Origin: a bacterium
Lineage (GTDB): Bacteria; CAIWAD01
Assembly (NCBI GenBank): GCA_030685015.1
Contig: JAUXWS010000087.1
Span: forward strand, 24,822-88,821
Length of the DNA: 64,000 bases
Direction: 5' to 3'
Below the pieces are notes generated by a model. The model was not told where the DNA came from. It saw only the letters and a program-made list of their open reading frames with translations, and did no database searches. This document shows, in pieces, positions 1,946-52,103 of this stretch. A program made the translations under genes and the position numbers. Positions within the stretch are counted from its first letter, which is position 1. Each line of letters opens with the position of its first letter.

Positions 1946-3254
1946 TTAGATTTCGTGCGTCCGATGGTGGGGGCGTCTCTGCGCCTTTGTCGTCCTGGTC
2001 ATCCCGCTGCCGGCCGTGATAGATCATGGCGAACACCACTAACCGCAGCACGGCTTCCGCCACATTGCCGATGCAGATGGAATAAGCGGCACCGATCAAA
2101 CCCCATTTGGGGACCAGGCTGAACATCAGGACGATAATTAACAGCAGAACGCTGAAGTTGATTGTTGGAATCCAGGCCACTTTGGCGAATTTAGTGATCA
2201 GCGGCCGGACGAATGCGATCACGAAGTTCGCGGGTATCATCCAGATCAAAATGGGAAACAGGCCCACCGCACGATTGCCAAAGCCGGGGAACAGCAGACG
2301 CAACATCAACGGCGAGAGGAAATAGAAAAACAGCATGCCTCCCGCCCCAAGCGCAACCATCATACCAAGGATTAGTCGATAAGTGTTTCGTGAGATCTCC
2401 TTGACCGAGTTGTACTTTGAGATCATGCTTAAAAGAAGAGCGCCACTGTTGGATACCGGCGTGACAAACAGGTAGACGATTCCGGTGGCGGCGAACAAGT
2501 CGGCCACCGCTTCATTATCCCAAAAGATTCGCAAAACTATTCTGTTCAAATGTGGTCCGGCCTGCACTAACATGCCAGCCAAGGTCATGTGGAACCAAAC
2601 GCCCTTCAGCACGGTTGCCAGCTCCGCCTGCGGGGTGACGTGTGGTTCCCTGAATCGGCGTTGGGCGAGGAAGTACAAGAGATAGTTGCTCAGCATCATT
2701 CCCGCAGCCAAACCAACCACACCGCCAATGGCACAACCCACGACTCCCATAAACGCCGTCGCCAGCGAAGCGGCAAGATACCATAAGGATCGCGACTTGA
2801 ATTGACGTCTGAACCTAAGTGGGGTCATAACCAGCATTATTTGATTTTCCGCATATAACGACATTCCGAGAAAAATAACACATAAGTATGTTTTAACATC
2901 AAAAAATCGCTCGTAGTACATTATGGAAGAAATAAACAATAATGCAACGACAACCGCTATAATTAACTTACAGCTCAATCCCAGGGCCGTTCTCACCAAT
3001 TTACGCTGTTGATCCTCGCCATAACGTGACATATTCCTCAACAGCCCCACCGCAAGTCCATTAGCAGGATTGACACCTATGATCAGCACGGCACTTAGCG
3101 CGGTTGCAAAGAGACCGAACTCCCCTTTGCCGACTAGGTGTGCGGCGATGGGAAACAAGAGCAGCCGAGAGACACCTGTCACCGCTCCTTGTTCGACGAA
3201 ATTCCAAAAAAGGTTTGGAACCTGCCGTGTAAGTTGTTCGATATAGTGGCGCAT
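1914..3254 (-). CDS. Wzx-like oligosaccharide flippase (MOP/polysaccharide biosynthesis protein family)
   Basis: 446 aa, about 12 predicted TM helices, typical Wzx/RfbX architecture. AT-rich relative to the window. Confidence 0.7.
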   Translation of the reverse strand: MRHYIEQLTRQVPNLFWNFVEQGAVTGVSRLLLFPIAAHLVGKGEFGLFATALSAVLIIGVNPANGLAVGLLRNMSRYGEDQQRKLVRTALGLSCKLIIAVVVALLFISSIMYYERFFDVKTYLCVIFLGMSLYAENQIMLVMTPLRFRRQFKSRSLWYLAASLATAFMGVVGCAIGGVVGLAAGMMLSNYLLYFLAQRRFREPHVTPQAELATVLKGVWFHMTLAGMLVQAGPHLNRIVLRIFWDNEAVADLFAATGIVYLFVTPVSNSGALLLSMISKYNSVKEISRNTYRLILGMMVALGAGGMLFFYFLSPLMLRLLFPGFGNRAVGLFPILIWMIPANFVIAFVRPLITKFAKVAWIPTINFSVLLLIIVLMFSLVPKWGLIGAAYSICIGNVAEAVLRLVVFAMIYHGRQRDDQDDKGAETPPPSDARNLISRPADTCDA

Positions 3255-3301
3255 GCTTCAATCAGTCCAAATAAAGCTGATTGTTCGAGTCCTGCTTACT
3301 C

Positions 3302-4456
3302 TTACCCTGCCAATGATTGTTGGAGGAACGCCGTGGACGCGGCACGTTCCCGCGACAAGACCATATCGGTTTGAGCGAAATCAACATGCGGCACGATTTG
3401 CCTCAATTCATCCTGTTCATATAGAATGCGATGGGATAAGCCAATATTGCACAGAAAACTTGTCATGCGGCTATTGACTGCACCTCCCTTCCTGAGTATG
3501 GTATAGAATGGCTTGCGGAAATTGACAGCAAAGGCCGTGCCGTGGAATGAGGAGCTGATAATGAAGGCAGCACCCTGAAACAGGCCCAGGAACTCAGCCG
3601 GCCCGTTGCCGAAAGCGTAACTCACGCCGAATTCGAGACCCTCGCGGATGTGGCCGCGCGGAATGCGGATGATCCGCGCACCAAGGCTCTTGGCCACCCG
3701 CACGGCGACATCGTAGATGTACTTGGAGTAAACCCGGCTATAAATCACGACATATCGTCCTTCTGCGTACGGGCGAGCCACCTCCCGCCAACCATCAGGC
3801 GTGATGAGCAAGGTGGGGTCCAACACCACCTGGGCTTGGCGTCCGGTCAAGTCCCGGACGATTGCGACGCCCTCATTCTCACGCACGGAAATGTTCTGGA
3901 TGTTGGCCAGCCACCGTCGGTAATCCTCCCTCATGTCCTCGGGAAGCATGGTGATACCGAAGCTGGCCGCGTATGAAAACCGCTTCGATGCAGGCGGGGC
4001 GAAAGTGAGAAAGTATGGCTCTGGCGAAGTGATCCGAGTTTGCGGATTCCAGACTTGATCACTGCCGGTGACAAAGGTATCGTAATCAAGATCGATAGAA
4101 TAAAGATCGTCAACACAAGCGAACTTCTGCTGTGAGACAACTAAATGTTGTTCTTTAAATTTTTGAAAACCACGACGCGTCAGTCGCTCATTTTTGTACC
4201 CAAATAAGCGTTCCATTTTTTTATAGAGATAATTGTTGAGCTTTGTTTGGCTGCTGTGCATCCGGTGCGCGGCCTTTCGTGCGCTATATCTGACCGGTTG
4301 TCGCGCTTGGGGATCGTCCGGCGACAGCACATCTAGGATTTCGCAGGTATAACCCAGTGAAGAGATTTTTCGCTGCAACGCATATGCTTGCAATTCCGCA
4401 CCGAAATTCAATCGGTTAAAGAAGGTCAAGGTCGCGACTTTTCCTTTCGGCATCAT
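3302..4456 (-). CDS. polysaccharide pyruvyl transferase family protein
   Basis: N-terminus KVATLTFFNRLNFGAELQAYALQ is typical of the CsaB/WcaK-type pyruvyl transferase fold. 384 aa. Confidence 0.65.
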   Translation of the reverse strand: MMPKGKVATLTFFNRLNFGAELQAYALQRKISSLGYTCEILDVLSPDDPQARQPVRYSARKAAHRMHSSQTKLNNYLYKKMERLFGYKNERLTRRGFQKFKEQHLVVSQQKFACVDDLYSIDLDYDTFVTGSDQVWNPQTRITSPEPYFLTFAPPASKRFSYAASFGITMLPEDMREDYRRWLANIQNISVRENEGVAIVRDLTGRQAQVVLDPTLLITPDGWREVARPYAEGRYVVIYSRVYSKYIYDVAVRVAKSLGARIIRIPRGHIREGLEFGVSYAFGNGPAEFLGLFQGAAFIISSSFHGTAFAVNFRKPFYTILRKGGAVNSRMTSFLCNIGLSHRILYEQDELRQIVPHVDFAQTDMVLSRERAASTAFLQQSLAG

Positions 4457-4479
4457 TGTTTCCCCTGTTTGATCGTGAA

Positions 4480-5514
4480 CTAATCTGCCCTTCCTGCATT
4501 GGCGACTGGCATGATTAAAAAAGGAAGATAGTTTATTGTGCCCAACTGAGTTTCAACACGATGATCTATCATCCTTCCGGCAATCACGTCATCTTGTGTT
4601 GTTCCCCAGTAGTTCTCAGTGACATCAACAGTACCTGACACAACCTTTACAAAGTTCGCCTCGTTACTAATGTTGTTTTGCCTGATATTATTTCTACCAT
4701 ATAGCGCGCTATGAAAGTAAATAACATACCGTTCTTGTCCTGCGAAGTCGCAATATGTGATGTTTAGATCATTTCTTTGACGCTCATAGATATGGTAAAA
4801 ATTGGCGTAAAAATCTATATAAGTGGCATGCAAAAAATCCTCGCCATGACAATATAGGCCAACATTTGAGCAATGCGATATTTCTCCATTATCAATGATC
4901 ATTCCTGATCGAATATTATAAATTCCTATCTCACAGTTACTAATTGTGAATCTTGTCATAATCAATGAATCAACATTATTAGAGCAATACAGTCCATATT
5001 GGCTATTCATGATGGTCAAATCTTCAATTTCCGCCCTCGCCACGTTGTCGCAATAGATACTATAAATTTCGTTTTCATCCATGGTTAACCTGCTTAACAT
5101 CACCCGTTGAGCCGCACGGATCTCTAGGCCTATTTGTCCACCCTCGATGTCCACATTATCCAGCGCCAGCGTCCCTTCAGCATGCTCGTACTTTAAACTA
5201 TACCATGGCCCTGCACCCAAGCGCTTCACAACCAAGTGGGCATCGTCCTCCAAGAGTATCATAGGAGGCAACTTGCAAGTAGCCCCCTCAGCCAAGCGGA
5301 ATTCCACCTCGCCGCGGATCACCAATCCAGCGTCGTTCCCTTCATACAAAAACGCCAAATCACCTTCGATGGTTACGCGCTCGTTGGGGCCAAAGCTCGC
5401 CGCTGTGGTCTGATCGCCCAAGACGGTCACATTCCTCCACGTGGTTCCCTCATCCTTGTGACAGGCCATCGCAAGAAGCAGCAATGACAAGGGCATGATA
5501 TGACTGGCTCTCAT
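4480..5514 (-). CDS. right-handed parallel beta-helix repeat lipoprotein (pectate-lyase-like fold)
   Basis: Lipoprotein-type signal (LLLLAMAC) is followed by repeated N/D/G/I/Y-rich beta-helix turns (NVDIEGG, CDNVARAEIEDLTIMNSQYGLYCSNN...). AT-rich gene. Confidence 0.55.
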   Translation of the reverse strand: MRASHIMPLSLLLLAMACHKDEGTTWRNVTVLGDQTTAASFGPNERVTIEGDLAFLYEGNDAGLVIRGEVEFRLAEGATCKLPPMILLEDDAHLVVKRLGAGPWYSLKYEHAEGTLALDNVDIEGGQIGLEIRAAQRVMLSRLTMDENEIYSIYCDNVARAEIEDLTIMNSQYGLYCSNNVDSLIMTRFTISNCEIGIYNIRSGMIIDNGEISHCSNVGLYCHGEDFLHATYIDFYANFYHIYERQRNDLNITYCDFAGQERYVIYFHSALYGRNNIRQNNISNEANFVKVVSGTVDVTENYWGTTQDDVIAGRMIDHRVETQLGTINYLPFLIMPVANAGRAD

Positions 5515-6719
5515 AATCGGCTCCCGTGATTCATCTCGTCGCGCATTGTATTCTGCATTTGCGAGGCGCGCAAGACTCGGTTATAAAGCTGAAGTAGATT
5601 GAGCACCTGTCGATTCAGGTTGTAGGTCTCCAGCACTGTTTGGCGCCCCCGAGTGCCCATCGCCTGTCGACGTGATGGGTCGTCCAGCAATGTGATGATA
5701 GCCTGGGCGATGTCCCCTGGGCGGGAAGTGTCCACTACAAGGCCAGCTTGCGTATCGTTCAGGATCTTCACCAGCTCCGGAAAGTCCTGCGCTAGTACCG
5801 CCACCCCACAGAACATGTACTCGAAGATGCGGTTAGGGATGGTCACACGGTTGTTCACATTGTCTTCGTAAAAGACACAGCCAATGTGGGCGTTCATGAG
5901 GCGCATGAAATTATCCTTCCAGGGCAGCATGCCCTCCAAACATAGGTTCTGCTCCACACTAAGGTGGCGGGCCAGCTCCCGCAGCACCTGGTCGTATCCG
6001 GCTGGTTCATAACGGCCCACGAACGCGAACACCGTGTCCGGGTGTTTGGCCAATACCTCCGGCATAGCCTGGATGGTCTGGCGGCAGTGCCGATCATCCG
6101 AATGCGTGCCCGAAGTGTAGACAGTGGGCGGCAAGGGCTTGACCTCTGGAACCTCTACATCCACCAACCGCTTGATGTCCGGCACGTTCTGGACCAGAAC
6201 GCCATCTCGCCGCACGCCATCGGACATGGCCAGGATGCTGTCCGAAACGGCCACCACCCCCGCGAACTGGGCTATACACCAGCACTCTATGGCCGTGTAC
6301 ATGCCTCCGGCCAAGCGTGCCATCCATCCCGGCAAGCCCCACATGTGGAAGCGGACCACATGGTTTTCATGTTTGTCATAGATCACGGGTCGTCCCTGCC
6401 ACGCCAGAAGCACCATCCACGGTAACAAATCGGGGTCGTGGAAATGGTACACGTCAGCCTTCACGCGGCGGGCCAGACGCAGTGCATCCCAGCAACTGAG
6501 GATTCGGCGACGCAGGCCCCGCCGCTCGGGAATCGGCAGGATCTCCACGCCATTCAAGGTCTCGGCCTTGTCATGGGTAATGATAAGGGTTACGCGGTGG
6601 CCTATGCGCACCAAGGCCCGGCAGGTGCGCTCGTAGATCCGCGCATCGTACATGGGGTGCATGCTTGTGATCTGACAGATATGCAGGAGCGGGGTCACAG
6701 GGGAACGTTGTCCATTCAT
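5511..6719 (-). CDS. glycosyltransferase family 4 (GT1 superfamily)
   Basis: 402 aa. N-terminus ICQITSMHPMYDARIYERTCRAL...GHRVTLI. The C-terminal retaining-GT motif lies in the EX7E region. Confidence 0.75.
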   Translation of the reverse strand: MNGQRSPVTPLLHICQITSMHPMYDARIYERTCRALVRIGHRVTLIITHDKAETLNGVEILPIPERRGLRRRILSCWDALRLARRVKADVYHFHDPDLLPWMVLLAWQGRPVIYDKHENHVVRFHMWGLPGWMARLAGGMYTAIECWCIAQFAGVVAVSDSILAMSDGVRRDGVLVQNVPDIKRLVDVEVPEVKPLPPTVYTSGTHSDDRHCRQTIQAMPEVLAKHPDTVFAFVGRYEPAGYDQVLRELARHLSVEQNLCLEGMLPWKDNFMRLMNAHIGCVFYEDNVNNRVTIPNRIFEYMFCGVAVLAQDFPELVKILNDTQAGLVVDTSRPGDIAQAIITLLDDPSRRQAMGTRGRQTVLETYNLNRQVLNLLQLYNRVLRASQMQNTMRDEMNHGSRL

Positions 6720-11828: not shown

Positions 11829-12958
11829 CTGCGGCACTCCCCGAAGGTGCGGATGCGATCGATCACCCGATGAATGTCGGAGTCCGTCAAGGCACTTCCC
11901 GAGGGCAGGCAAAGGCCGCCTGCGAAGAGCTGCTCGGCCACGGTGCTGCCGAAGCAGCGACTGCCGCGGAAGACAGGCTGCAAATGCATGGGCTTCCACA
12001 CGGGCCGGGTCTCGATATCGTCCGTCTCCAAGTGCAGGCGCAAGGTCTCTGGATCCACACCAAACTTGTCGACGTCGATCTGGATCACGGTGAGCCAGCG
12101 GTTGTGACCAGCCCACGGAGCCTCGGGCATGAAAGTAATGCCCGGCACATTATCCAAGCCTAGGCGATAGGCTTCGAAGATCCGCCGCCGTGCGGCCACA
12201 CGCACGGGCAGCACACGCAATTGCGCCAAGCCGATGGAGGCCAACACGTTGCTCATGCGGTAATTGTAACCCCACTCCTTGTGCTCATAGTATGGCTTGG
12301 GCTCACGTGCTTGCTGCGATAAGTTACGGGCGCGGTCTATTAGGTCCCTATTCGCCGAACAGAGCATACCGCCGCCCGAGCTGGTGATGATCTTGTTGCC
12401 GTTGAAGGAGAAGATGGCGGCGTCCGCGTCCAGTCCCACAGGCCGTCCTTTGTATGTGGTCCCCACCGCCTCTGCGCAATCTTGTAACACGGGGATGCCA
12501 CGCTCGCGGCAAAGGGCCAGTATGGGGTCCATATCTGCAGGATGGCCGTACAAGTCCGTGGGAACTACGGCAGACACGCGACGCCCTTCCCGTTCACAGG
12601 TTGCTAGAGCCTCCGCAAGGACGTGTGAATCCATGCACCAGCTCTCTCGATCCGCGTCCACGAAGGCCAGCTCGGCCCCTTGGTACAAGGCAGAGGCGAT
12701 GCTGCCGATGAATGTAAGCGTGCTGGCTAGCACTGTGGTTCCCGGCCCCACCCCAACAAGGCGCATGGCTAGATGCATAGCGGCCGTGCCACTGCATAAA
12801 GCCAGTGCATTCCCATGATCAAGTAGTTCACAGAATTCAAGTTCGAAGGCGTCGACCATGGGCCCCAGGGGTGCAATGTAATTCGATTCAAAGGCCTGTT
12901 GAACCAGAGCCAGTTCGGTGCCATGCATATGAGGTGGCGAGAGAAATAGTCTAGCCAT
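11825..12958 (-). CDS. DegT/DnrJ/EryC1/StrS (PglE-like) PLP-dependent sugar aminotransferase
   Basis: 377 aa. FSFNGNKIITSSGGGML carries the PLP lysine. Motif EWGYNYRMSNVLASIGLAQL. Confidence 0.85.
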   Translation of the reverse strand: MARLFLSPPHMHGTELALVQQAFESNYIAPLGPMVDAFELEFCELLDHGNALALCSGTAAMHLAMRLVGVGPGTTVLASTLTFIGSIASALYQGAELAFVDADRESWCMDSHVLAEALATCEREGRRVSAVVPTDLYGHPADMDPILALCRERGIPVLQDCAEAVGTTYKGRPVGLDADAAIFSFNGNKIITSSGGGMLCSANRDLIDRARNLSQQAREPKPYYEHKEWGYNYRMSNVLASIGLAQLRVLPVRVAARRRIFEAYRLGLDNVPGITFMPEAPWAGHNRWLTVIQIDVDKFGVDPETLRLHLETDDIETRPVWKPMHLQPVFRGSRCFGSTVAEQLFAGGLCLPSGSALTDSDIHRVIDRIRTFGECRR

Positions 12959-12961
12959 GGT

Positions 12962-15304
12962 TCACCTTTTCACGTTATAACGATACTTGGGGAAGAAACT
13001 CTCAGGCACATCATCAATTCCGTGCACGATCTGGTTGCGCTCGCAAAGGGTTTCGTAGGCGGCCCCATCCACAACAATCCGTTGCGTGCTATACGGATAT
13101 ATCACTTGTGAGAAGCCAAGTTTGAATTGAAAAAGCTCGTCATCACGGCCACCCAATCCTCCTCCCAAGTTAAGCCATTCGGCACCAGATTCCGCATAAT
13201 ACTCAAAAGCTTTGTAAAACATGAGTTTCGATGGCGCCCAGTTGAGATGGTCATCCGTGGTGCCGCCAAGGTGATATTGGACAATACCGCCAGTTCGCAC
13301 GAATAGACCACCGGCGACGACCTTTCCCGCTGGGTTCAGAACCGATATCAAAGCGACATTCGGGCTCAGAACACGACGAAAATCATCGAAATATGCCCCA
13401 CTGAAGAAGTAATAGCGAGCCGCATTGACTCGGGTCATTGTCTGCGCGTATAGTTTTTGAAATACAGTATAATCTTCCCAGTGGTTAATTCGGACTTCGA
13501 AACCAGCCTTCTGGAGTTTTCGGATTGCACGTTTGTGGCTGTTCCGCATGCCCTGCTCAAAAGTGGCCAGATCTTGCCGAAGATTGATCATTACAGTGTT
13601 GCCATGCTTGAAGATCTCCCCCATGGCGCTGGCTGTCTCTGAGAAACAGCCCAGCAACGGGTGGTTGCGGAGAAATAGTGATACAATGTTATTCTGATAG
13701 CAGTAATGTTTTAGAGCCTTCATCAACTCATTCACTTGTGATTCGAAAACAGCATAGACTAGTGGTCCAGGATAGCCATATGGACTATATGCATCCCAAA
13801 GTCTATTTTCGGTAAGAGTCGTTGGTACGAGCCGCAGCAGAAGTGGAACGAACAATTCAGTTTCCCCCAATGTGATGTGCAGTGCAAGTGAACGAACTTC
13901 TTCTTCGCGTGCGCATAGCTTAAGATAGCCCGGCAGGTGATAGAAGTCATGGGGCAATCTTCCCAACACACGTTCCAGCTCCGCAGGTTGATCCAACAAA
14001 TCCCGAATCCTGCTTCGAATTCTTAAGGCGGGCACCCCGACTCGAGTTTCATATCCTTCACTGTCAACGATCTGCACGCTACCCGCTCCGAGTATTGTCC
14101 AGGGACGGATCCGCAGCTGAGGCAATACGCAGCATCCAACTCCTGCGAAAACACCCTCCTCAATATTGGCACCACCGCCCAAATGGACCCCAGGACACAA
14201 GTGGACATGATTCTTAATCAGGCAGTCATGGTCGACACTGCAGGAAGTGTTGAGAATCACGTTGCAACCGATAGATGCTCCAGTATTGACCACAACTCCG
14301 GCTGCAATGAAGGTGCCCATTCCTATTGGAACATCATCGGCAATGACCGCCGAAGGATGGATTACTGCTCGAACTTGCACTCCAGATTTAACCAACCAAT
14401 GAAACACTGTCATCCTTAATTGGTTGCTGCCAAAACCAATGATAACACAGTCGCAGCCACCTGCGCCAAACATAGTTGAAGCGATCGGGCCATACACTGG
14501 CCGGCCAAGGCAAGTCTGGCCATGTAACTGAACATCGTCATCTAGAAATCCGACCAGTTGCAGTTCTCCACCCGACTTCTCGGTGCACAGCACGGCATCC
14601 CCGATCACCCGGCCATGCCCGCCAGCCCCTAGCACCATAATCCTAGTCTTGGGCGAATGACCAATAAACTCGGGCATGGTGGCGTACCTTGGATGGCTGA
14701 TGCCCTCCCTTCTCACCACAAGAGAAACGGTCTTCCAAAGAATCCAAAAGTCAAGCATCAGGGAGTGGCGCTCAACGTACTCCACATCGTGCTCGAAACG
14801 CTCCTCCCAACTCAAGGAGTTGCGGCCTCGGATCTGCGCCAAACCCGTAATCCCGGGCTTCACCTCATGGCGACGGGCTTGGCGCGGGGAATAGCGTGGA
14901 ATGTACTCGACCATCAAGGGGCGCGGACCCACCAAGCTCATCTTACCACGCATCACCAACAGCAATTCAGGCAGCTCGTCAAGCGATGTGGAGCGCAGCC
15001 ACGCGCCAAACGGAGGAATGCGCTCCTCATCTGGCAGCAGGCGGCCCTGTGCGTCACGGGCGTCCGTCATGCTGCGGAACTTGACCAGTTCGAACAAAAG
15101 CCCATGCAGCCCCGGCCGTGTTTGCCTGAATAGAACCGGACGCCCTAGTTTAAATGCGATGGCCAGGGCCAATCCCATGAACATCGGCGCGAGCAACACA
15201 AGGGCGACCGCCGAGGCGCCGATATCAAACAAGCGTTTACCTGCCCGCCGGTATAGCCCTTGGCGCTCTAACCGCGCGGACGCCCAGCCGGAATCTGGAA
15301 TCAC
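12962..15304 (-). CDS. tri-domain fusion: bacterial sugar phosphotransferase (PglC/WbaP C-terminal type), NeuD/PglD-like hexapeptide N-acetyltransferase, and FemAB-related acyltransferase domain
   Basis: Domain 1 is KRLFDIGASAVALVLLAPMF...SLVGPRPL...PGITGLAQI. Domain 2 is MVLGAGGHGRVI...hexapeptide repeats. Domain 3 is ...AARYYFFSGAYFDD...VQYHLGGTTDDHLNWAPSKLMFYKAFEYYAESGAEWLNLGGG. The likely start is a GTG overlapping the upstream TGA (GTGA at 15301-15304). The long N-terminal extension in the ORF table overlaps the upstream gene. Confidence 0.7.
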   Translation of the reverse strand: MIPDSGWASARLERQGLYRRAGKRLFDIGASAVALVLLAPMFMGLALAIAFKLGRPVLFRQTRPGLHGLLFELVKFRSMTDARDAQGRLLPDEERIPPFGAWLRSTSLDELPELLLVMRGKMSLVGPRPLMVEYIPRYSPRQARRHEVKPGITGLAQIRGRNSLSWEERFEHDVEYVERHSLMLDFWILWKTVSLVVRREGISHPRYATMPEFIGHSPKTRIMVLGAGGHGRVIGDAVLCTEKSGGELQLVGFLDDDVQLHGQTCLGRPVYGPIASTMFGAGGCDCVIIGFGSNQLRMTVFHWLVKSGVQVRAVIHPSAVIADDVPIGMGTFIAAGVVVNTGASIGCNVILNTSCSVDHDCLIKNHVHLCPGVHLGGGANIEEGVFAGVGCCVLPQLRIRPWTILGAGSVQIVDSEGYETRVGVPALRIRSRIRDLLDQPAELERVLGRLPHDFYHLPGYLKLCAREEEVRSLALHITLGETELFVPLLLRLVPTTLTENRLWDAYSPYGYPGPLVYAVFESQVNELMKALKHYCYQNNIVSLFLRNHPLLGCFSETASAMGEIFKHGNTVMINLRQDLATFEQGMRNSHKRAIRKLQKAGFEVRINHWEDYTVFQKLYAQTMTRVNAARYYFFSGAYFDDFRRVLSPNVALISVLNPAGKVVAGGLFVRTGGIVQYHLGGTTDDHLNWAPSKLMFYKAFEYYAESGAEWLNLGGGLGGRDDELFQFKLGFSQVIYPYSTQRIVVDGAAYETLCERNQIVHGIDDVPESFFPKYRYNVKR

Positions 15305-22754: not shown

Positions 22755-23456
22755 TTGCCCATGTTCACTGGAATCTCCCACGCCGTGGAGCGCGCCATCC
22801 GCACCGGCCTGCACATGGCGCTGGACACCTGGCTTTTCGGCTACAACCGCGTCACCTACCACCGCCGGGAGCGCCTGCGGGAGGACCAACAGCAGATCAT
22901 CGTCTCCAACCACACCAGCCACTACGACGCCGCCGTGCTGCTCTCGGCCTTCCCTTTCCACTGCATGCACCGCGTGCATCCGGTGGCGGCCAAGGACTAC
23001 TTCTTCTCCAACCGCCTGAAGGGCCTTTTCTTCCGCCTCTTCATGAACGTGCTGCCCATCGAACGCTCGGCCAAGCTGCACGAGGCCTTCGTCCCCACTG
23101 AGGAGGCCCTCGCCCGCGGGCACAGCATCATCATTTTTCCGGAGGGGACGCGCAGCGTGGACGGGGAGATCAAGTCCTTCAAGGTGGGCGTGGGCTACCT
23201 GTCAGCCAAGTACGGCCTGCCCGTCCTGCCCGTCTACATCGACGGCGCCCACAAGGCCTTCGGCAAGGGCCACAACGTGCCCAAGGCCTTCAAGGTGAGC
23301 GTCGTCTACGGCAAGCCCCTGCGCTACGAGGGCGACCCCGCCGACCGGGAGGGCTGGGCGACCTTCGCCGAGCGCCTGCGCGGGGAGATCCAACGCCTGC
23401 AGCGTTCCTTCCAGCGGGCCCGGGACAACTTCAACCTCTTCCCGCCCCAGGCCTGA
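22755..23456 (+). CDS. 1-acyl-sn-glycerol-3-phosphate (lysophospholipid) acyltransferase, PlsC family
   Basis: HX4D motif (VSNHTSHYD) and FPEGTRS motif. Confidence 0.75.
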   Translation: MPMFTGISHAVERAIRTGLHMALDTWLFGYNRVTYHRRERLREDQQQIIVSNHTSHYDAAVLLSAFPFHCMHRVHPVAAKDYFFSNRLKGLFFRLFMNVLPIERSAKLHEAFVPTEEALARGHSIIIFPEGTRSVDGEIKSFKVGVGYLSAKYGLPVLPVYIDGAHKAFGKGHNVPKAFKVSVVYGKPLRYEGDPADREGWATFAERLRGEIQRLQRSFQRARDNFNLFPPQA

Positions 23457-23513
23457 ACCATCCACGGATCACGCCGCCTTGGATGGAAGCCCCCGCCTCC
23501 CGCCCGACCCCTC

Positions 23514-24374
23514 CTACTCCTCCCCGATGGGCTGGAAGCGGAACTCCCCCAGCACGCGCTCCAGGCGCCCCTCGAAGCGCTCCAGCCCGTGGTACTGGCG
23601 CAGGCTCCGCCAGACGGGCAGGCGCAGGCGGGGCTGCTCCAGATCCAGCTCCCAGGGGTGGACGTAGAGATGGAAGCTGCGTCCGCCGCGGTTCCAGTCC
23701 CGCATGTGGGACAAGTTCCAGGCCATGGGCAGGGCGCGCAGCCAGAAGCCGCCTCCCCAGGCCAGCGGTTGCCCCAGGATGCGACGGCCGGCCAGCGGAT
23801 ACTCGCGGATGGATCCGGAGGGAATCGTCACCTGATGGGGGCGGCCCTCCACCAGGTCGCGGCGGCGCTCCGCCGGGACGCCGGCCAGCAGGCGCGGGGA
23901 GAGGCGCGCCGCCATCAGGCTGCTCGACCAGGCGAAGCCGGCCGAGCGCAGCGCTTCATAATGGCTTTCGAGGGGCGGCAGGCTGAAATCCGGCGCCCGG
24001 TATCCAGGTCCTCCGCCCCAGGCCGCCTCCCAGGGCCGCAGCAAGGCCAGGCTCTCCGCCAGGTCCCGCTGGAAGTCGCCCAGGTCCTGCCGGAAGACGC
24101 GGCGGTGGCCCAGCCCGTGGGATGCAATGCGGTGTCCCGCCGCGGCGATCTCGTCGATGAGGGCGGGATGCTGGCGCGCCACCTCGCCCAGGACGAAGAA
24201 GGTGGCCTGGGTCTGGAACTGGTGGAAGAGCCGCAGGAGGCGCCGGGTGCCATAGACCACGCGCTGGCCCAACTGCTCCTTGAGCGGCCGGTCTTCCAGC
24301 CGCCGCAGCCGGGCTTGCAGATTGGCCGCGTGGTGGGCGCTCTCCAGGTCGACGCTGAGGAAATGGAACCGCAT
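23514..24374 (-). CDS. polysaccharide deacetylase family protein
   Basis: HFLSVDLES...TFFVLGEVARQHPALIDEIAAAGHRIASHGLGHRR is a NodB homology domain. Confidence 0.75.
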   Translation of the reverse strand: MRFHFLSVDLESAHHAANLQARLRRLEDRPLKEQLGQRVVYGTRRLLRLFHQFQTQATFFVLGEVARQHPALIDEIAAAGHRIASHGLGHRRVFRQDLGDFQRDLAESLALLRPWEAAWGGGPGYRAPDFSLPPLESHYEALRSAGFAWSSSLMAARLSPRLLAGVPAERRRDLVEGRPHQVTIPSGSIREYPLAGRRILGQPLAWGGGFWLRALPMAWNLSHMRDWNRGGRSFHLYVHPWELDLEQPRLRLPVWRSLRQYHGLERFEGRLERVLGEFRFQPIGEE

Positions 24375-24424
24375 AATGCTCCAAATGGTACCCTGACCCG
24401 TTCCTCCGTCGAAGATCCGCCGGG

Positions 24425-24632
24425 CCTGTCATTCTGCAGAACTGTCATCCTGAGGACTTGTCATCCCAGCGAAAGCTGGGATCCCATCCTTTTTTGACCA
24501 GCGCCACGCGTGGCACTTGGTGGCCCGCTATCCCGGCACCGGCGCCGTGAGGCGACGGGATGGGTGGTATGGATGATCCTCCCGCGGGATCCCAGCTTCC
24601 GCTGGGATGACATCAAATCTGAGATGACGGAC
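24425..24632. repeat. MITE-like module of nested inverted repeats in the 5' region of ychF
   Basis: A 26-bp near-perfect inverted repeat: gtcatcccagcgaaagctgggatccc (24461-24486) versus gggatcccagcttccgctgggatgac (24588-24613). Each copy is itself a hairpin (cccagc-GAAA-gctggg). Three direct TGTCATYC copies lie on the left (24428, 24444, 24460) and two GATGACA copies on the right. Confidence 0.6.
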
Positions 24633-24688
24633 CCTCCCCCTATATTGCATTTGCTCCTTTGGCATCGGCAAGCTCGCGGAAGGAATCC

Positions 24689-25774
24689 ATGGAAATCGGC
24701 ATCATCGGCCTGCCCCAGGCGGGCAAGACCACATTGTTCAACGCACTCACCGGCCTGGGGGTGGATCTGGGCTACGCCGGCGGCCGCAAGAGCGCCAACC
24801 GCGGCGTAGCCCGCGTCCCGGACGAGCGGCTGGAGCAGCTCTCCCGGCTTTTCAAGCCGCGCAGCACGGTCCACGCCACGGTCAACTACGTGGATCTGGG
24901 CGGCCTCTCCGGCGAGGGACGGCGCTCCAGCGGCTTTCCCGCCGACGTCCTGCAGGCGCTCAAACCCTGCGAGGCGCTTCTGCTGGTCCTCCGCGCGTTC
25001 GACGACCCGGCCCGCCCCCACCCCGACGGTCCGGCCGACCCGCAGCGGGACTTCCGCACCGCCCGCGACGAGTTCATCCTCTCCGACCTGGCCATCTGCG
25101 AGGGCCGCATCGAGCGGCTGGAGAAACAGATGATGAAGGTGAAGGAGAAGGATCAGGCCTTCGAGCTGGAGACGCTCAAGCTCTGCCACGCCGCGCTGGA
25201 GGAGGAGCGGCCCCTGCGCACCCTGGAGCTGGACGAGGCGCGCCGCCGGGTGCTGCGCTCCTACGCCTTCCTCAGCCTCAAGCCGCTCCTGGTCGTGCTC
25301 AACGTGCAGGACAACGCGGTGCGCGACGAGTCCCGGCTGGAGGCCCTGCGCCAGGCCAAGGCGGGCGGTGGTCAGCGTTTCCTCCAGGTGAGCGCCCGCA
25401 TCGAGATGGAGCTGGCGCAGCTGGACGAGGCGGAGGCCGGCGAGTTCCTGGCCGAGTACGGCATCCAGGAGCCGGCCCTTCATCGGGTGTTGCGGGAAAG
25501 CTTCGCCCTGCTCGACCTCGAGACCTTCTTCACCGTGGGCGAGGACGAGTGCCGGGCCTGGACCCTGCGCCGCGGCAGCACCGCCCCCATGGCCGCCGGG
25601 GTCATCCACAGCGACATCCAGAAAGGGTTCATCCGCGCCGAAGTGGTCCCCTCCGCCGAACTCCTGCGCCTGGGCAGCATGGCCGCCTGCAAGGAGAAGG
25701 GCAGCCTGCGCCTGGAAGGCCGCGAGTACCTGGTGCAGGAGGGGGAGGTTGTCCATTTCCGCTTCAATGTCTGA
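24689..25774 (+). CDS. ychF: redox-regulated ribosome-binding ATPase YchF (Obg family)
   Basis: MEIGIIGLPQAGKTTLFNALT Walker A motif and C-terminal TGS domain (GSTAPMAAGVIHSDIQKGFIRAEVV). Confidence 0.9.
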   Translation: MEIGIIGLPQAGKTTLFNALTGLGVDLGYAGGRKSANRGVARVPDERLEQLSRLFKPRSTVHATVNYVDLGGLSGEGRRSSGFPADVLQALKPCEALLLVLRAFDDPARPHPDGPADPQRDFRTARDEFILSDLAICEGRIERLEKQMMKVKEKDQAFELETLKLCHAALEEERPLRTLELDEARRRVLRSYAFLSLKPLLVVLNVQDNAVRDESRLEALRQAKAGGGQRFLQVSARIEMELAQLDEAEAGEFLAEYGIQEPALHRVLRESFALLDLETFFTVGEDECRAWTLRRGSTAPMAAGVIHSDIQKGFIRAEVVPSAELLRLGSMAACKEKGSLRLEGREYLVQEGEVVHFRFNV

Positions 25775-27539
25775 CCAGGCCGTGTTCCCATCCTCCTTCC
25801 GCGAGCACTGGCGCTGGCTGCGCCCCGCGGGCGAGCCGCCCGCGGACGGCCTCCTGCGGGCCTGGCCCGATCTGGGTCCCGCCGGTCGCTCGGCGCTGCT
25901 GTCGCTGCTGGCCGAGGCGCGCCGCCGCCTGGAGGAGCAGGCCGTCCCGGAAGCCGCTCCGATGGAGGCCGGCCGCCTGGCGCTGGCCCGACGCCTGCTG
26001 GACCGGGAGGAGGCCGCCCTGGCCCACCCGCCCGCTCGCGGCGAGGTGGTGGCGTTGGTCGCGGACACCCTGGAGTCGGATCTGGAGGCGGATCCCGCCC
26101 GGTGTCTGGAGCGGCTGCGGCGGCTGGACGAGCTGTCCCGGCCCCTCTTCGGCCCCGAGGCTCCCCCTTTGGGCGGGGACGGCGAGGAGGGACGCGCCGC
26201 CGCCCAGCGCCTGCGCGCCCTGGCCGCTCACCTGGGCCATCGTCTGCCCCGCCTGTCGGGCGGCGAAGCGGATCCCGCCCTGGGCCCCCTCGAAGAGCTG
26301 GCCCGCCGGGTGGAGGAGCTTCCCCCGACCCCCCCGCCCGCCGGTCCAGACAGGTGGGCGGAGATCGGGACCGAGGGTGGCTGGGAGCTGGCTCCCCTGT
26401 TGCAGCGGATCGAGGAGGAGCTGGGCCGCGTCCGCCGCGAGGCGGCGCGCCGCGCCCTCCTCCTCCGGCAACGCTTCCTGGGTTCGGCCGAGGCCCCCGG
26501 CGGCGACCTCCCCTGGATCCTGGCCCAGCTGGCCCTGGATCCGCCCCGCGCCGAGCACTGGCGCTGGCTGCACCAGCGGCTGGTCGGCGAGCTGGCCCGC
26601 CACCTGGACCGCCTGGGCCTTGCCGCGGGCCGCCTGGCTGTGCGGCTCTCGCCCGGCCTGTCGCCCGACCAGCCGGATCCCGCCTGTGACGGGTCGGGCG
26701 CGGCCCTCGGCCTGGCCGACCTCTCCCTGCTGGCGCCGGAGGAGCTGGAATCATTCCTGGAATCATGCGGCCACGCCCTCCTGCCGCTCCTTGTCGCCCG
26801 GGAAGGATTGCCCGGTCGCGCCTGGCGCTTGGCCGCAGCCCGGGAGGAAGGTGGTGACCCGGCGCGCGATGTGGTGGCCGTCCTTCTGCGCCCGGCGGAC
26901 CTGGAAGCCTGGGCCCGCTGGGCCGGGGACTGGGCCCTCCAGGCCGGCTGGCAGGCGGGCGACCTGCGTGTGCGCCTCTGCCAGGCCCGCCGCGAGGAGC
27001 TGGACTGGCTGCTGGCGCGCGCCGACCTGGAGCGCCGGCTGGGCAGTCGCGGCGAGGAGGAAATCCGCGAGCGCCTCTGCCGCGAGGCCGCCTTGTCCGC
27101 GCGGGCGGGCGAGGCCGCCTGGCGGCGCCTGGTCAGGGAGCCGGGCAGCCAGGCCGCCGCCGCCCTGCGTCTGCTCCATTTCCGCGAGGCGGGCCGCCGC
27201 TGGCGCCGTGCGCATCGGGAGGCCGCCTCGGCCGACTGGTTCCATCTGTTGGCAGCCTGCGCCCCCTTCCCGCTCGCCTGGCTGCGTCAGCATCTGCACC
27301 AGCTCCCGCCGCCGGGCCTGGCCTGGCGGCCACAGCCGCCCGCTCTCGTCAAGCCCGTCACGCCGCGGGGGGAGGGCCTGCTCAGCGAGATGGAGGAGCG
27401 GCTGGCCGCGCTGGGCCGCATCCGGCGCGAGGACCTGGAGGCCGGCCGCGAGTTCGACGGCGCCCCCGCCGGGCCGCCCACAGCCGATCCCCCGGGGCGA
27501 GATGGGTCGGAGGAAGAGGTCGATGCGTCAGCTGAGTGA
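25767..27539 (+). CDS. hypothetical protein, 590 aa, Arg/Leu/Ala/Glu-rich, no recognisable domain
   Basis: ATG overlaps the ychF stop (ATGTCTGA) and the 3' end overlaps the ABC exporter start by 17 nt. Very high GC3 codon usage in this frame is consistent with real coding. EHWRWL motif occurs twice. Confidence 0.55.
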   Translation: MSDQAVFPSSFREHWRWLRPAGEPPADGLLRAWPDLGPAGRSALLSLLAEARRRLEEQAVPEAAPMEAGRLALARRLLDREEAALAHPPARGEVVALVADTLESDLEADPARCLERLRRLDELSRPLFGPEAPPLGGDGEEGRAAAQRLRALAAHLGHRLPRLSGGEADPALGPLEELARRVEELPPTPPPAGPDRWAEIGTEGGWELAPLLQRIEEELGRVRREAARRALLLRQRFLGSAEAPGGDLPWILAQLALDPPRAEHWRWLHQRLVGELARHLDRLGLAAGRLAVRLSPGLSPDQPDPACDGSGAALGLADLSLLAPEELESFLESCGHALLPLLVAREGLPGRAWRLAAAREEGGDPARDVVAVLLRPADLEAWARWAGDWALQAGWQAGDLRVRLCQARREELDWLLARADLERRLGSRGEEEIRERLCREAALSARAGEAAWRRLVREPGSQAAAALRLLHFREAGRRWRRAHREAASADWFHLLAACAPFPLAWLRQHLHQLPPPGLAWRPQPPALVKPVTPRGEGLLSEMEERLAALGRIRREDLEAGREFDGAPAGPPTADPPGRDGSEEEVDASAE

Positions 27540-32106: not shown

Positions 32107-32132
32107 TGATCATCAGCAGCCCACGGGGACAA

Positions 32133-32338
32133 CCCCCGGGCAACCCCCGGGCAACACCAGGGCAACACCAGGGCAACACCAGGGCGGCACCAGGGCAACA
32201 CCAGGGCAACACCAGGGCAACACCAAGGCGACACCAGGGCAACACCAGGGCAACACCAGGGCGACACCAGGGCAACACCAGGGCAACACCAGGGCAACAC
32301 CAGGGCGACACCAGGGCGACACCAGGGGGCCAATTCGC
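32133..32338. repeat. 11-bp tandem repeat array, about 18 copies (consensus CACCAGGGCAA)
   Basis: Two cccccgggcaa units are followed by caccagggcaa units with occasional A-to-G or G-to-A variants. The array fills the whole gap between the TauE stop (32104-32106) and the reverse-strand stop at 32340-32342. It has no stop codon in any of the six frames. Confidence 0.95.
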
Positions 32339-51933: not shown

Positions 51934-51966
51934 GATCTCGATATCGATATCGATATCGGTATCGAT
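51934..51966. repeat. hexanucleotide repeat block (ATCGAT/GATATC)n
   Basis: gatctcgatatcgatatcgatatcggtatcgat lies in the divergent promoter region. Confidence 0.9.
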
Positions 51967-52046: not shown

Positions 52047-52103
52047 CTCGATCACGATATCGATATCGATAGCGATAGCGATAGCGATAGCGATAGCGAT
52101 AAC
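52047..52103. repeat. hexanucleotide repeat block, GATATC x2 then (AGCGAT)x6
   Basis: tcgatcacgatatcgatatcgatagcgatagcgatagcgatagcgatagcgataa lies 115 bp upstream of the DegT-like start. Confidence 0.9.

What the first reader, a model, noticed from the sequence alone, without database searches (positions are those of the whole stretch)
24425..24632. MITE-like nested inverted-repeat module in the ychF 5' region
Two 26-bp repeats, gtcatcccagcgaaagctgggatccc and its complement gggatcccagcttccgctgggatgac, differ by one base. Each is itself a GAAA-tetraloop hairpin. They face each other 100 bp apart. Three TGTCATYC direct repeats lie on one side and two GATGACA, its complement, on the other. This level of symmetry is not expected by chance. 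It fits a miniature inverted-repeat transposable element, a structured leader RNA, or a cluster of dimeric operator sites that regulate ychF, the translationally coupled hypothetical protein and the ABC exporter pair.
Basis: seen in the sequence. Interest (0 to 1): 0.55.

Follow-up and report, generated by a model that had tools for sequence, protein, structure and literature searches.

The report
Known hairpin repeat pair upstream of ychF
The symmetric module upstream of ychF is a head-to-head pair of a small hairpin repeat already known from many bacteria, and it is missing from a strain of the same species, so it is passenger DNA and not a ychF control element.

Summary
Two 27-nt units, TGTC|ATCCCAGC|GRAA|GCTGGGAT|CCC, face each other across 100 nt at 24459-24485 and 24586-24612. 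Three orphan tag copies flank them.

The units fit the published CGTC-1 class of repetitive extragenic palindromes (Di Nocera 2013). These are the same repeats as the NTS-like "Ssn-related motifs" of Chenal 2025. They have a TGTC tag, an 8-bp stem starting with AT, a 4-nt loop and a 3-nt tail, and they sit tags-outward.

The 19 specified bases of the core occur in more than 120 genome loci against about 4 expected by chance. Most are in Sphingomonadales and Xanthomonadales, usually as tags-outward pairs. Eight loci (six genome, two viral) also carry a roughly 95-aa GIY-YIG (Ssn-type) nuclease gene, in three cases between two units.

In this window the module lies in a divergent intergenic region, upstream of a conserved -10-like box. 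A same-species strain (96.6-98% flank identity) carries unrelated DNA with a PF05635 gene in its place. Three of four more distant relatives lack it.

The leader-RNA and operator readings are therefore not supported. "Small mobile palindromic element" is right in spirit, but this is a REP type, not a classical MITE. No nuclease or transposase gene is in the window. The copy number in the host genome could not be tested.

Verdict: an ordinary new member of a known kind.

The parts
24427..24442 (+). Orphan tag unit 1, TGTCATTCTGCAGAAC. It is the tag TGTCA followed by the 10-bp palindrome TTCTGCAGAA, with no foldable hairpin.
   Evidence: (family D3). It does not fold as ssDNA.
24443..24458 (+). 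Orphan tag unit 2, TGTCATCCTGAGGACT, 16 bp in phase with unit 1 and with the full unit.
   Evidence: The pattern GTCATYCTSNAGRA occurs in no other fetched locus.
24459..24485 (+). Left complete REP unit: tag TGTC, stem ATCCCAGC/GCTGGGAT, loop GAAA, tail CCC.
   Evidence: It fits the CGTC-1 description and is one substitution from the SRM search string.
24486..24585 (+). Spacer of the head-to-head dimer, 100 nt. It contains the palindrome GCCACGCGTGGC (24503-24514) and the hairpin CCGGCGCC-GTGA-GGCGACGG (24539-24558).
   Evidence: It shows orientation-specific, co-linear similarity to sequence downstream of the same REP type in L149, L153 and L148 (z 6.0, 5.0 and 3.9). Taken alone it is not unusually structured (z -0.75).
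24586..24612 (-). Right complete REP unit. On the - strand it reads TGTC|ATCCCAGC|GGAA|GCTGGGAT|CCC.
24623..24629 (-). Orphan tag on the right side. It reads CGTCATC on the - strand and GATGACG on the + strand.
   Evidence: It pairs with the left orphan units in the predicted fold.
24641..24646 (+). Context, not part of the repeat: the -10-like TATATT within a conserved CCTATATTG, 42 nt upstream of the ychF ATG at 24689. The module lies upstream of it.
   Evidence: Promoter scan. It is invariant in alignment A1 and present in L122, L123, L124, L126, L129 and L132.

Best explanation
**What it is.** The module at 24427-24629 is a small cluster of CGTC-tagged repetitive extragenic palindromes of the CGTC-1 type. 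These are the same repeats as the NTS-like 'Ssn-related motifs'. It has two complete units in head-to-head orientation (tags outward) around a 100-nt spacer, plus three orphan tag copies. It is non-coding passenger DNA in the divergent intergenic region between a polysaccharide deacetylase gene and ychF.

**How it works (inferred from the family, not shown here).** When the DNA is single-stranded, during replication or DNA uptake, each unit folds into an 8-bp hairpin. The 5' GTC tag and the 3' C give the hairpin an orientation. Small single-domain GIY-YIG nucleases (Ssn) bind such hairpins and nick a few nucleotides 5' of the tag. The repeats travel and multiply together with ssn genes in a REP>-ssn-<REP arrangement. 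Tags-outward pairs without the gene are the common ssn-less form.

**At this locus.** No nuclease gene is nearby. The copy is most likely an inert or trans-dependent relic. Any effect on the two flanking promoters would be incidental.
For: **Anatomy.** The tag is TGTC, the stem is 8 bp and starts with AT, the loop is 4 nt, the tail is 3 nt, and the pair sits tags-outward with a 100-nt spacer. This matches the written definition of CGTC-1 REPs and their dimers (PMC3733652).

**Match to the Ssn target.** The units are co-linear with the Neisseria NTS, CGTCATTCCCGCGMAVGCGGGAATCYRG, with stem changes on both sides of two pairs. They keep the GTC and the C after the palindrome, which SsnA needs for cutting and binding (PMC11893778).

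**Family size.** My estimate of the chance expectation is about 4.
- There are 144 exact copies. The base before GTC is C in 128 and T in 14. The loops are GAAA, GAAG, GCAG or GAAC, read on one strand only.
- Of 206 oriented copies, 62 pairs are tags-outward with spacers of 27-81 nt. Only 4 pairs are tags-inward and 1 is tandem.

**Link to the nuclease.** GIY-YIG genes of 94-96 aa lie between tags-outward pairs in L006, L047 and L009 (PF01541, E about 1e-14 to 1e-15). Homologs lie near units in L060, L108 and L116 and on two viral contigs.

**Variable at this locus.** A same-species strain has 646 bp of unrelated DNA in place of 24375-24663. L122, L124 and L129 lack the module, although gene order is conserved.

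**Other points.**
- The spacer is related to sequence next to the same REP subtype in other metagenomic genomes.
- Orphan tags upstream of full units recur in the family: 17 of 211 copies against 2-7 in control windows.
Against: - Only one locus exists in the 64-kb window. The copy number in the host genome is unknown.
- No ssn, transposase or recombinase gene was found in the window.
- The exact 27-mer was not found in the JGI samples that hold the sister strain.
- Each arm misses the published SRM search string by one substitution.
- The spacer is longer than in any of the 62 tags-outward pairs compared here, 106 nt against a maximum of 81 by the same measure.
- The position between divergent genes is the least common one reported for REPs.
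- The figure with the CGTC-1 consensus sequences is not held, so membership rests on the features described in the text.
Confidence: 0.85

Rival explanations
1. It is a recombination or cassette-exchange hotspot. The REP units serve as target or homology sites for a site-specific recombinase, as Neisseria dRS3 does for a phage recombinase, or for transformation-driven replacement. This would explain why strains carry different inserts here.
For: - The whole intergenic block differs between strains with 96.6-98% flank identity. One has the REP module and the other a PF05635 gene.
- Every lineage of the clade has different content at this site.
- dRS3 is reported as a target of a specific phage recombinase and lies near genes that vary between isolates (PMC11893778).
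- The motif occurs on 30 IMG/VR contigs.
Against: - The sister strain's insert has no REP or tag at its borders.
- No recombinase gene is in the window.
- This reading does not exclude the best explanation.
Confidence: 0.12
2. It is a REPIN mobilised by a RAYT (an IS200/IS605-type tyrosine transposase), like the GTAG-tagged REP doublets of Pseudomonas and E. coli.
For: The architecture is the same: two inverted REPs around a short spacer, forming one long hairpin (PMC3116915 abstract).
Against: - The tag is TGTC/CGTC and not GTAG.
- CGTC repeats were never found flanking RAYT or other transposase genes (PMC3733652).
- The genes found between units here are GIY-YIG, not HUH/Y1.
- No Y1 transposase is in the window.
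Confidence: 0.05
3. It is a regulatory element of ychF or of the divergent deacetylase gene: a cluster of dimeric operator sites or a structured 5' leader.
For: - It lies in a divergent promoter region, and its right unit ends 28 nt upstream of the -10-like box.
- The orphan units are short dyads in a 16-bp phase.
- The tags read ATGACA outward, which resembles a -35 hexamer (read directly from the sequence).
Against: - It is absent in a same-species strain and in three of four relatives with the same gene order.
- The conserved -10-like box lies downstream of it.
- Rfam has no match at gathering thresholds, and the best sub-threshold hit is 16 bits against a 39-bit cutoff.
- The spacing from ATGACA to TATATT is 29 nt, too long for a promoter.
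Confidence: 0.04
4. It is a classical MITE: a deletion derivative of a DDE-type insertion sequence with terminal inverted repeats and target-site duplications.
For: It has 27-nt inverted termini, a total size of about 150-200 bp, and a strain-variable presence.
Against: - No direct repeat flanks either possible pair of boundaries. The flanks read GGACT versus TCAAA, and GGGCC versus GACCC.
- Each terminus is a self-complementary REP that also occurs singly and in pairs with unrelated spacers.
- No related IS was found.
Confidence: 0.03

Closest known systems
CGTC-1 family of tagged REPs (Di Nocera, De Gregorio and Rocco 2013, BMC Genomics 14:522), for example in Sphingomonas/Rhizorhabdus wittichii
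   Same: - An unpaired 5' tag, with TGTC an accepted variant of CGTC.
- An 8-bp stem starting with AT, a 4-nt loop and a 3-nt tail.
- Mostly head-to-head homodimers with 20-100 bp spacers.
- Intergenic, with no adjacent transposase.
- The identical 19-base core dominates in Sphingomonadales loci.
   Different: - The tail is CCC and not the usual CCA (CCC in 6 of 144 copies elsewhere).
- The spacer is at the upper limit.
- It lies between divergent genes.
- The host is an unclassified MAG, not a named proteobacterium.
- Only one locus was seen in 64 kb.
Neisseria NTS/dRS3 and 'Ssn-related motifs' with the GIY-YIG ssDNA nuclease SsnA (Chenal et al. 2025, Nat Commun 16:2388)
   Same: - The oriented hairpin is co-linear with CGTCATTCCCGCGMAVGCGGGAATCYRG.
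- GTC precedes the palindrome and C follows it.
- The same repeat subtype flanks 94-96-aa GIY-YIG genes in L006, L047 and L009.
   Different: - The stem sequence differs at two base pairs, with changes on both sides.
- Each arm is one substitution off the SRM search string.
- No ssn gene is in the window.
- Nuclease action and any role in transformation are untested here.
REPINs and RAYTs (Bertels and Rainey 2011)
   Same: It is an inverted REP doublet that can fold into one long hairpin, and a non-autonomous element dependent on a single-copy enzyme.
   Different: The tag is GTAG there and TGTC here. The enzyme there is a HUH/Y1 transposase, and none is associated with this repeat.
Neisseria intergenic mosaic elements and minimal mobile elements
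   Same: The repeats sit in an intergenic site between conserved genes where different strains carry different content.
   Different: There is no array of RS units here, and the alternative allele is not flanked by the repeat.

Membership tests
CGTC-1 REP (Di Nocera 2013) | Unpaired terminal tag CGTC, with TGTC or CCTC as accepted variants | tested here: met
   Both arms have TGTC. The right-hand orphan tag is CGTC. In 144 family copies the base before GTC is C in 128 and T in 14. Definition.
CGTC-1 REP (Di Nocera 2013) | An 8-bp stem with complementary A and T in the first and second positions, and a 4-nt loop | tested here: met
   The stem is ATCCCAGC/GCTGGGAT and the loops are GAAA and GGAA. 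The ssDNA fold is -8.6 kcal/mol.
CGTC-1 REP (Di Nocera 2013) | A short unpaired 3-nt tail, mostly CCA | tested here: met
   The tail is CCC on both arms. Elsewhere the tails are CCA 56, CTC 38, CGC 15 and CCC 6 of 144.
CGTC-1 REP (Di Nocera 2013) | Mainly head-to-head dimers (tags outside) with a 20-100 bp spacer, mostly homodimers | tested here: met
   The tags face outward, 100 nt lie between the 27-mers, and the arms differ by 1 nt. Comparison set: 62 tags-outward, 4 tags-inward and 1 tandem pair.
CGTC-1 REP (Di Nocera 2013) | A dispersed multicopy family within the host genome | not testable with these tools
   Only 64 kb of the host is available and it holds one locus. Multiple loci per genome were seen in other genomes, including Sphingomonas sp. 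R86520, Sphingomonas sp. BK036, a Telluria MAG, and 12 loci from sample Ga0172380.
NTS/SRM-Ssn system (Chenal 2025) | Matches the degenerate SRM search string HGTCWYN(0-2)YYVSBRHN(0-5)WNVSBRGN(0-2)RNCYNB | tested here: not met
   Each arm is one substitution away. 86 of 144 core-identical copies elsewhere match exactly. The string is a search heuristic, so this lowers the membership claim without excluding it.
NTS/SRM-Ssn system (Chenal 2025) | The three bases 5' of the palindrome (GTC) and the C directly 3' of it, which are critical for SsnA cutting and binding | tested here: met
   Both arms read GTC-palindrome-C. The requirement is described.
NTS/SRM-Ssn system (Chenal 2025) | A cd10448-type single-domain GIY-YIG gene in the genome, often flanked by the repeats | tested here: inconclusive
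   There is none in the window or in the clade loci (tblastn; Pfam). The rest of the host genome is not available. Such a gene is present next to the same repeat in 6 genome loci and 2 viral loci.
NTS/SRM-Ssn system (Chenal 2025) | Bound and cleaved only as ssDNA by the cognate Ssn | not testable with these tools
   This needs a biochemical assay.
REPIN/RAYT | A GTAG tag and a RAYT gene flanked by the repeats | tested here: not met
   The tag is TGTC. No Y1 transposase is in the window. The genes flanked by this repeat are GIY-YIG.
Classical MITE | Target-site duplication flanking the terminal inverted repeats | tested here: not met
   No direct repeat occurs at either candidate pair of boundaries.
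Curated cis-regulatory RNA (Rfam) | A match at the family's gathering score, and conservation in orthologous leaders | tested here: not met
   No gathering-level match was found. The best weak hit is BjrC68, 16.2 bits against a 39-bit cutoff. The module is not conserved in orthologous regions.

The most novel reading that the evidence does not exclude
In this uncultured lineage the repeat pair marks a cassette-exchange hotspot. Ssn-type nicking just 5' of the tags on single-stranded, replicating or incoming DNA drives replacement of the whole intergenic block. In one strain the block is the REP module and in another it is a PF05635 gene. The nicking leaves orphan-tag footprints of the kind seen at 24427, 24443 and 24623, and upstream of 8% of family copies elsewhere.
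Probability: 0.1. Interest if true: 0.55.

Novelty: new member of a known kind. Interest (0 to 1): 0.22.

Why it matters
- The finding prevents a wrong annotation. The striking symmetry upstream of ychF is a copy of a widespread selfish or domesticated hairpin repeat, not a riboswitch or an operator.
- It adds one data point: CGTC/NTS-like units, so far described mainly in Proteobacteria, also occur in an unclassified MAG lineage. They are strain-variable there.
- The recurrent orphan tags just 5' of full units fall where SsnA is reported to cut. This is a small, testable lead on how these repeats arise.

Tried and rejected
- **Rfam.** The gathering search and a permissive search of the region gave nothing usable. 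There are no tRNA or tmRNA genes in the window.
- **Literature search by sequence string.** It found 0 papers. The family was found through REP keywords instead.
- **Supplements of Di Nocera 2013.** They hold no explicit sequences.
- **Other CGTC-type hairpins in the window.** A scan found only the two arms.
- **Target-site duplications.** None were found.
- **Intrinsic terminator.** None was predicted, and the flanking genes are divergent.
- **Homology between the window's intergenic block and the sister strain's block.** Only the -10 box and the 5' UTR match.
- **Spacer against all fetched loci.** No long match was found. There is only short co-linear similarity to three metagenomic loci.
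- **The orphan-unit pattern GTCATYCTSNAGRA.** It occurs in no other locus.
- **Host subfamily scan of JGI metagenomes.** There were 23 hits, none from the sister strain's samples.
- **Ssn, transposase or recombinase genes in the window.** None were found.
- **Attempts to extend the data.**
  - Two relatives had no DNA on file.
  - A look-up meant to extend the host contig failed.
  - Host phylum: NCBI calls the MAG only 'bacterium', and the nearest named YchF relatives are Acidobacteria at about 50% identity. I did not pursue this further.

Full report
**1. What is in the sequence**

The region lies in a 314-bp intergenic stretch (24375-24688). On one side is a polysaccharide deacetylase gene on the minus strand (23514-24374; PF01522 and PF11959). 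On the other is ychF on the plus strand (ATG at 24689). The two genes are divergent.

The arms are 24459-24485 and 24586-24612, 27 nt each, with one mismatch and 100 nt between them. No further copy with up to 3 mismatches exists in the 64-kb window, and none appeared in 100 shuffles.

Each arm reads TGTC | ATCCCAGC | GRAA | GCTGGGAT | CCC. As single-stranded DNA it folds into an 8-bp stem with a 4-nt loop, at -8.6 kcal/mol.

To the left are two 16-bp units in phase with the left arm, TGTCATTCTGCAGAAC and TGTCATCCTGAGGACT. They do not fold. To the right, at 24623-24629, is GATGACG, the complement of CGTCATC.

The right arm's loop is GGAA on its own strand, not GAAA. The second right-hand heptamer is GATGACG, not GATGACA.

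**2. The arms belong to a very large repeat family**

I scanned one genome per species for GTCATCCCAGC-N4-GCTGGGAT, which has 19 specified bases. My estimate of the chance expectation is about 4, from 596 Gb, two strands and uniform base composition.

Most hits are in Sphingomonadales and Xanthomonadales/Lysobacterales, with some Burkholderiales and others. Several genomes contribute more than one locus.

Among 144 exact copies:
- The base before GTC is C in 128 and T in 14.
- The loops read GAAA, GAAG, GCAG or GAAC on one strand only, so the unit has an orientation.
- The tails are CCA in 56, CTC in 38, CGC in 15 and CCC in 6.

Of 206 oriented copies, 62 pairs are tags-outward with spacers of 27-81 nt. 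Only 4 pairs are tags-inward and 1 is tandem. Many spacers have complementary ends, so the whole pair can form one long hairpin.

**3. This family is already described**

Di Nocera, De Gregorio and Rocco (2013; PMC3733652) define CGTC-tagged REPs as follows:
- The terminal CGTC is often TGTC.
- Family 1 has an 8-bp stem starting with AT, a 4-nt loop, and a 3-nt tail, mostly CCA.
- The elements are mainly head-to-head dimers, meaning tags outside, with 20-100 bp spacers. They are mostly homodimers.
- No dedicated transposase is known.
- Neisseria dRS3 and Rickettsia RPE-6 are CGTC-1 members, and Sphingomonas wittichii is a CGTC-1-rich genome.

The window's arms meet every sequence feature listed there.

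Chenal et al. (2025; PMC11893778) give the matching protein. The Neisseria NTS is CGTCATTCCCGCGMAVGCGGGAATCYRG, and NTS-like 'Ssn-related motifs' occur in Rhizorhabdus wittichii, Wolbachia and others. These motifs are bound and cut, as single-stranded DNA only, a few nucleotides 5' of the tag. The enzyme is SsnA, a 94-aa single-domain GIY-YIG nuclease. Its gene is typically flanked by the repeats.

The window's arm is co-linear with the NTS. Two stem pairs are changed on both sides. The arm keeps the GTC and the 3' C that matter for cutting and binding. Each arm misses the published degenerate search string by one substitution, while 86 of 144 core-identical copies elsewhere match it.

**4. 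The link to Ssn holds for this exact repeat subtype**

In L006, L047 and L009 a tags-outward pair encloses a gene of about 95 aa with a GIY-YIG domain (PF01541, E about 1e-14 to 1e-15). Homologs lie near units in L060, L108 and L116. Two of the 30 viral contigs that carry the motif also have a homolog.

The window itself has no such gene (tblastn). It also has no transposase, recombinase or HUH gene among about 46 ORFs scanned with Pfam.

**5. The module is not a conserved part of the ychF region**

The host is an NCBI MAG labelled only 'bacterium'. The nearest named YchF relatives are Acidobacteria, at about 50% identity.

Relatives with 81-86% YchF identity keep the gene order deacetylase | ychF | hypothetical | ABC transporter. 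Their intergenic regions are:

| Locus | Intergenic length | Content |
|---|---|---|
| L122 | 130 bp | no REP |
| L129 | about 155 bp | no REP |
| L124 | 191 bp | no REP |
| L126 | 710 bp | other content |

The only block shared by all of them is CTATATTG, about 42 nt upstream of the ATG, followed by part of the 5' UTR. The promoter scan picks its TATATT as a -10 hexamer. The module lies upstream of it, so it is probably not in the ychF transcript. This is an inference.

The closest other species, L123, has a double-tagged palindrome at the same place: TGTCATCCCGGCG-12 nt-CGCCGGGTTGACG. A CGTC-type element may therefore be old at this site.

The most telling comparison is a sister strain, L132, whose flanks are 96.6-98% identical in DNA. 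In place of window 24375-24663 it carries 646 bp of unrelated sequence, with a PF05635 gene and an (ATCGAT)n repeat. A ychF-specific regulator would not be swapped out within a species.

**6. Relatives of the whole module**

I scanned JGI metagenomes for the host subtype, with a TGTC tag and a CCC tail. This gave 23 loci, 12 of them from one sample on large contigs. There the unit is usually preceded, head to tail, by a second CGTC unit, CGTCATCCCCCGGCTTGACCGGGGGATCCC.

The window's spacer shows orientation-specific similarity to the sequence downstream of the unit in L149, L153 and L148 (z 6.0, 5.0 and 3.9). The similarity falls at the same offset. It includes the hairpin CCGGCGCC-GTGA-GGCGACGG at about 56 nt. 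So more than the 27-mer is shared, which fits a dispersed composite element.

None of the 23 loci came from the samples that hold the sister strain. The host's own copy number therefore remains unknown.

**7. Orphan tags**

An extra GTCA[TC][CT]C lies 2-40 nt upstream of 17 of 211 family copies, most often at 17-22 nt. Control windows gave 2-7. The window's 16-bp-phased orphan units are an instance of this.

Their origin is unexplained. They sit where SsnA is reported to nick, which is a lead and not a result.

**8. Verdict**

The module is a head-to-head pair of CGTC-1 / NTS-like REP units with orphan tags.
- It is a new member of a known kind, found in a poorly classified lineage.
- It is strain-variable, and no partner nuclease gene lies within 64 kb.
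- The mobile-element idea is right in spirit, but the classical MITE, RAYT-REPIN, leader-RNA and operator readings each fail a test.
- The Ssn-based mechanism is inferred from the family and was not shown for this host.

Noticed in passing
L132 9330-10000, corresponding to window 24375-24663: A same-species strain carries a 131-aa PF05635 gene (23S rRNA intervening-sequence / four-helix-bundle protein; E 2e-20) on the minus strand, plus an (ATCGAT)n repeat at L132 9351-9384, in place of the REP module.
   Followed up: partly
window 23449-23518, against L132 7293-8473: The sister strain has an extra 1.18 kb with a 221-aa ORF of no known family between the acyltransferase and deacetylase genes. 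This is a second strain-level indel, about 1 kb from the REP module.
   Followed up: no
L124 2810-3000, L126 2291-3000 and L123 2850-3000: The ychF-upstream intergenic region is hypervariable across the clade. L124 has (GTTCTC)x4 plus an 18-bp direct repeat. L126 has a 710-bp insert bordered by GATCGGGATCGC / GCGATCCCGAT inverted repeats. L123 has a double-tagged palindrome. Only CTATATTG is conserved.
   Followed up: partly
window 32130-32327: A tandem array of 18 copies of the 11-bp unit CAACACCAGGG (93% matches) lies in the intergenic region after the TauE-family gene.
   Followed up: no
window 51934-51966 and 52055-52101: The hexamer arrays (GATATC)x5.5 and (CGATAG)x7.8 lie in another divergent intergenic region. 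They resemble the (ATCGAT)n array upstream of ychF in the sister strain.
   Followed up: no
window 2001-6000 and 12001-14000: Low-GC islands (47-53% against 66-72% elsewhere) lie inside a polysaccharide-synthesis cluster with pyruvyl transferase, beta-helix protein, glycosyltransferase and sugar transferase genes. This suggests horizontally acquired glycan genes.
   Followed up: no
L142, L143, L145, L148, L155, L158 and L159 (sample Ga0172380): Head-to-tail heterodimers recur in one metagenomic genome. They consist of CGTCATCCCCCGGCTTGACCGGGGGATCCCATGGC, about 10 nt, then TGTCATCCCAGCGAAAGCTGGGATCCCATGGC. Tandem dimers were described as negligible for CGTC repeats.
   Followed up: partly
L161-L190 (IMG/VR contigs), especially L164 and L172: The core motif occurs on 30 viral or prophage contigs, and two of them also encode an Ssn-type GIY-YIG protein. 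This is a possible route for spread between lineages.
   Followed up: partly
window 25749-27539: The 596-aa ORF overlapping the ychF stop codon is very rich in Ala, Arg, Leu, Pro and Glu (78% GC). It has no Pfam match but is conserved in position across the clade, between ychF and the ABC transporter genes.
   Followed up: no
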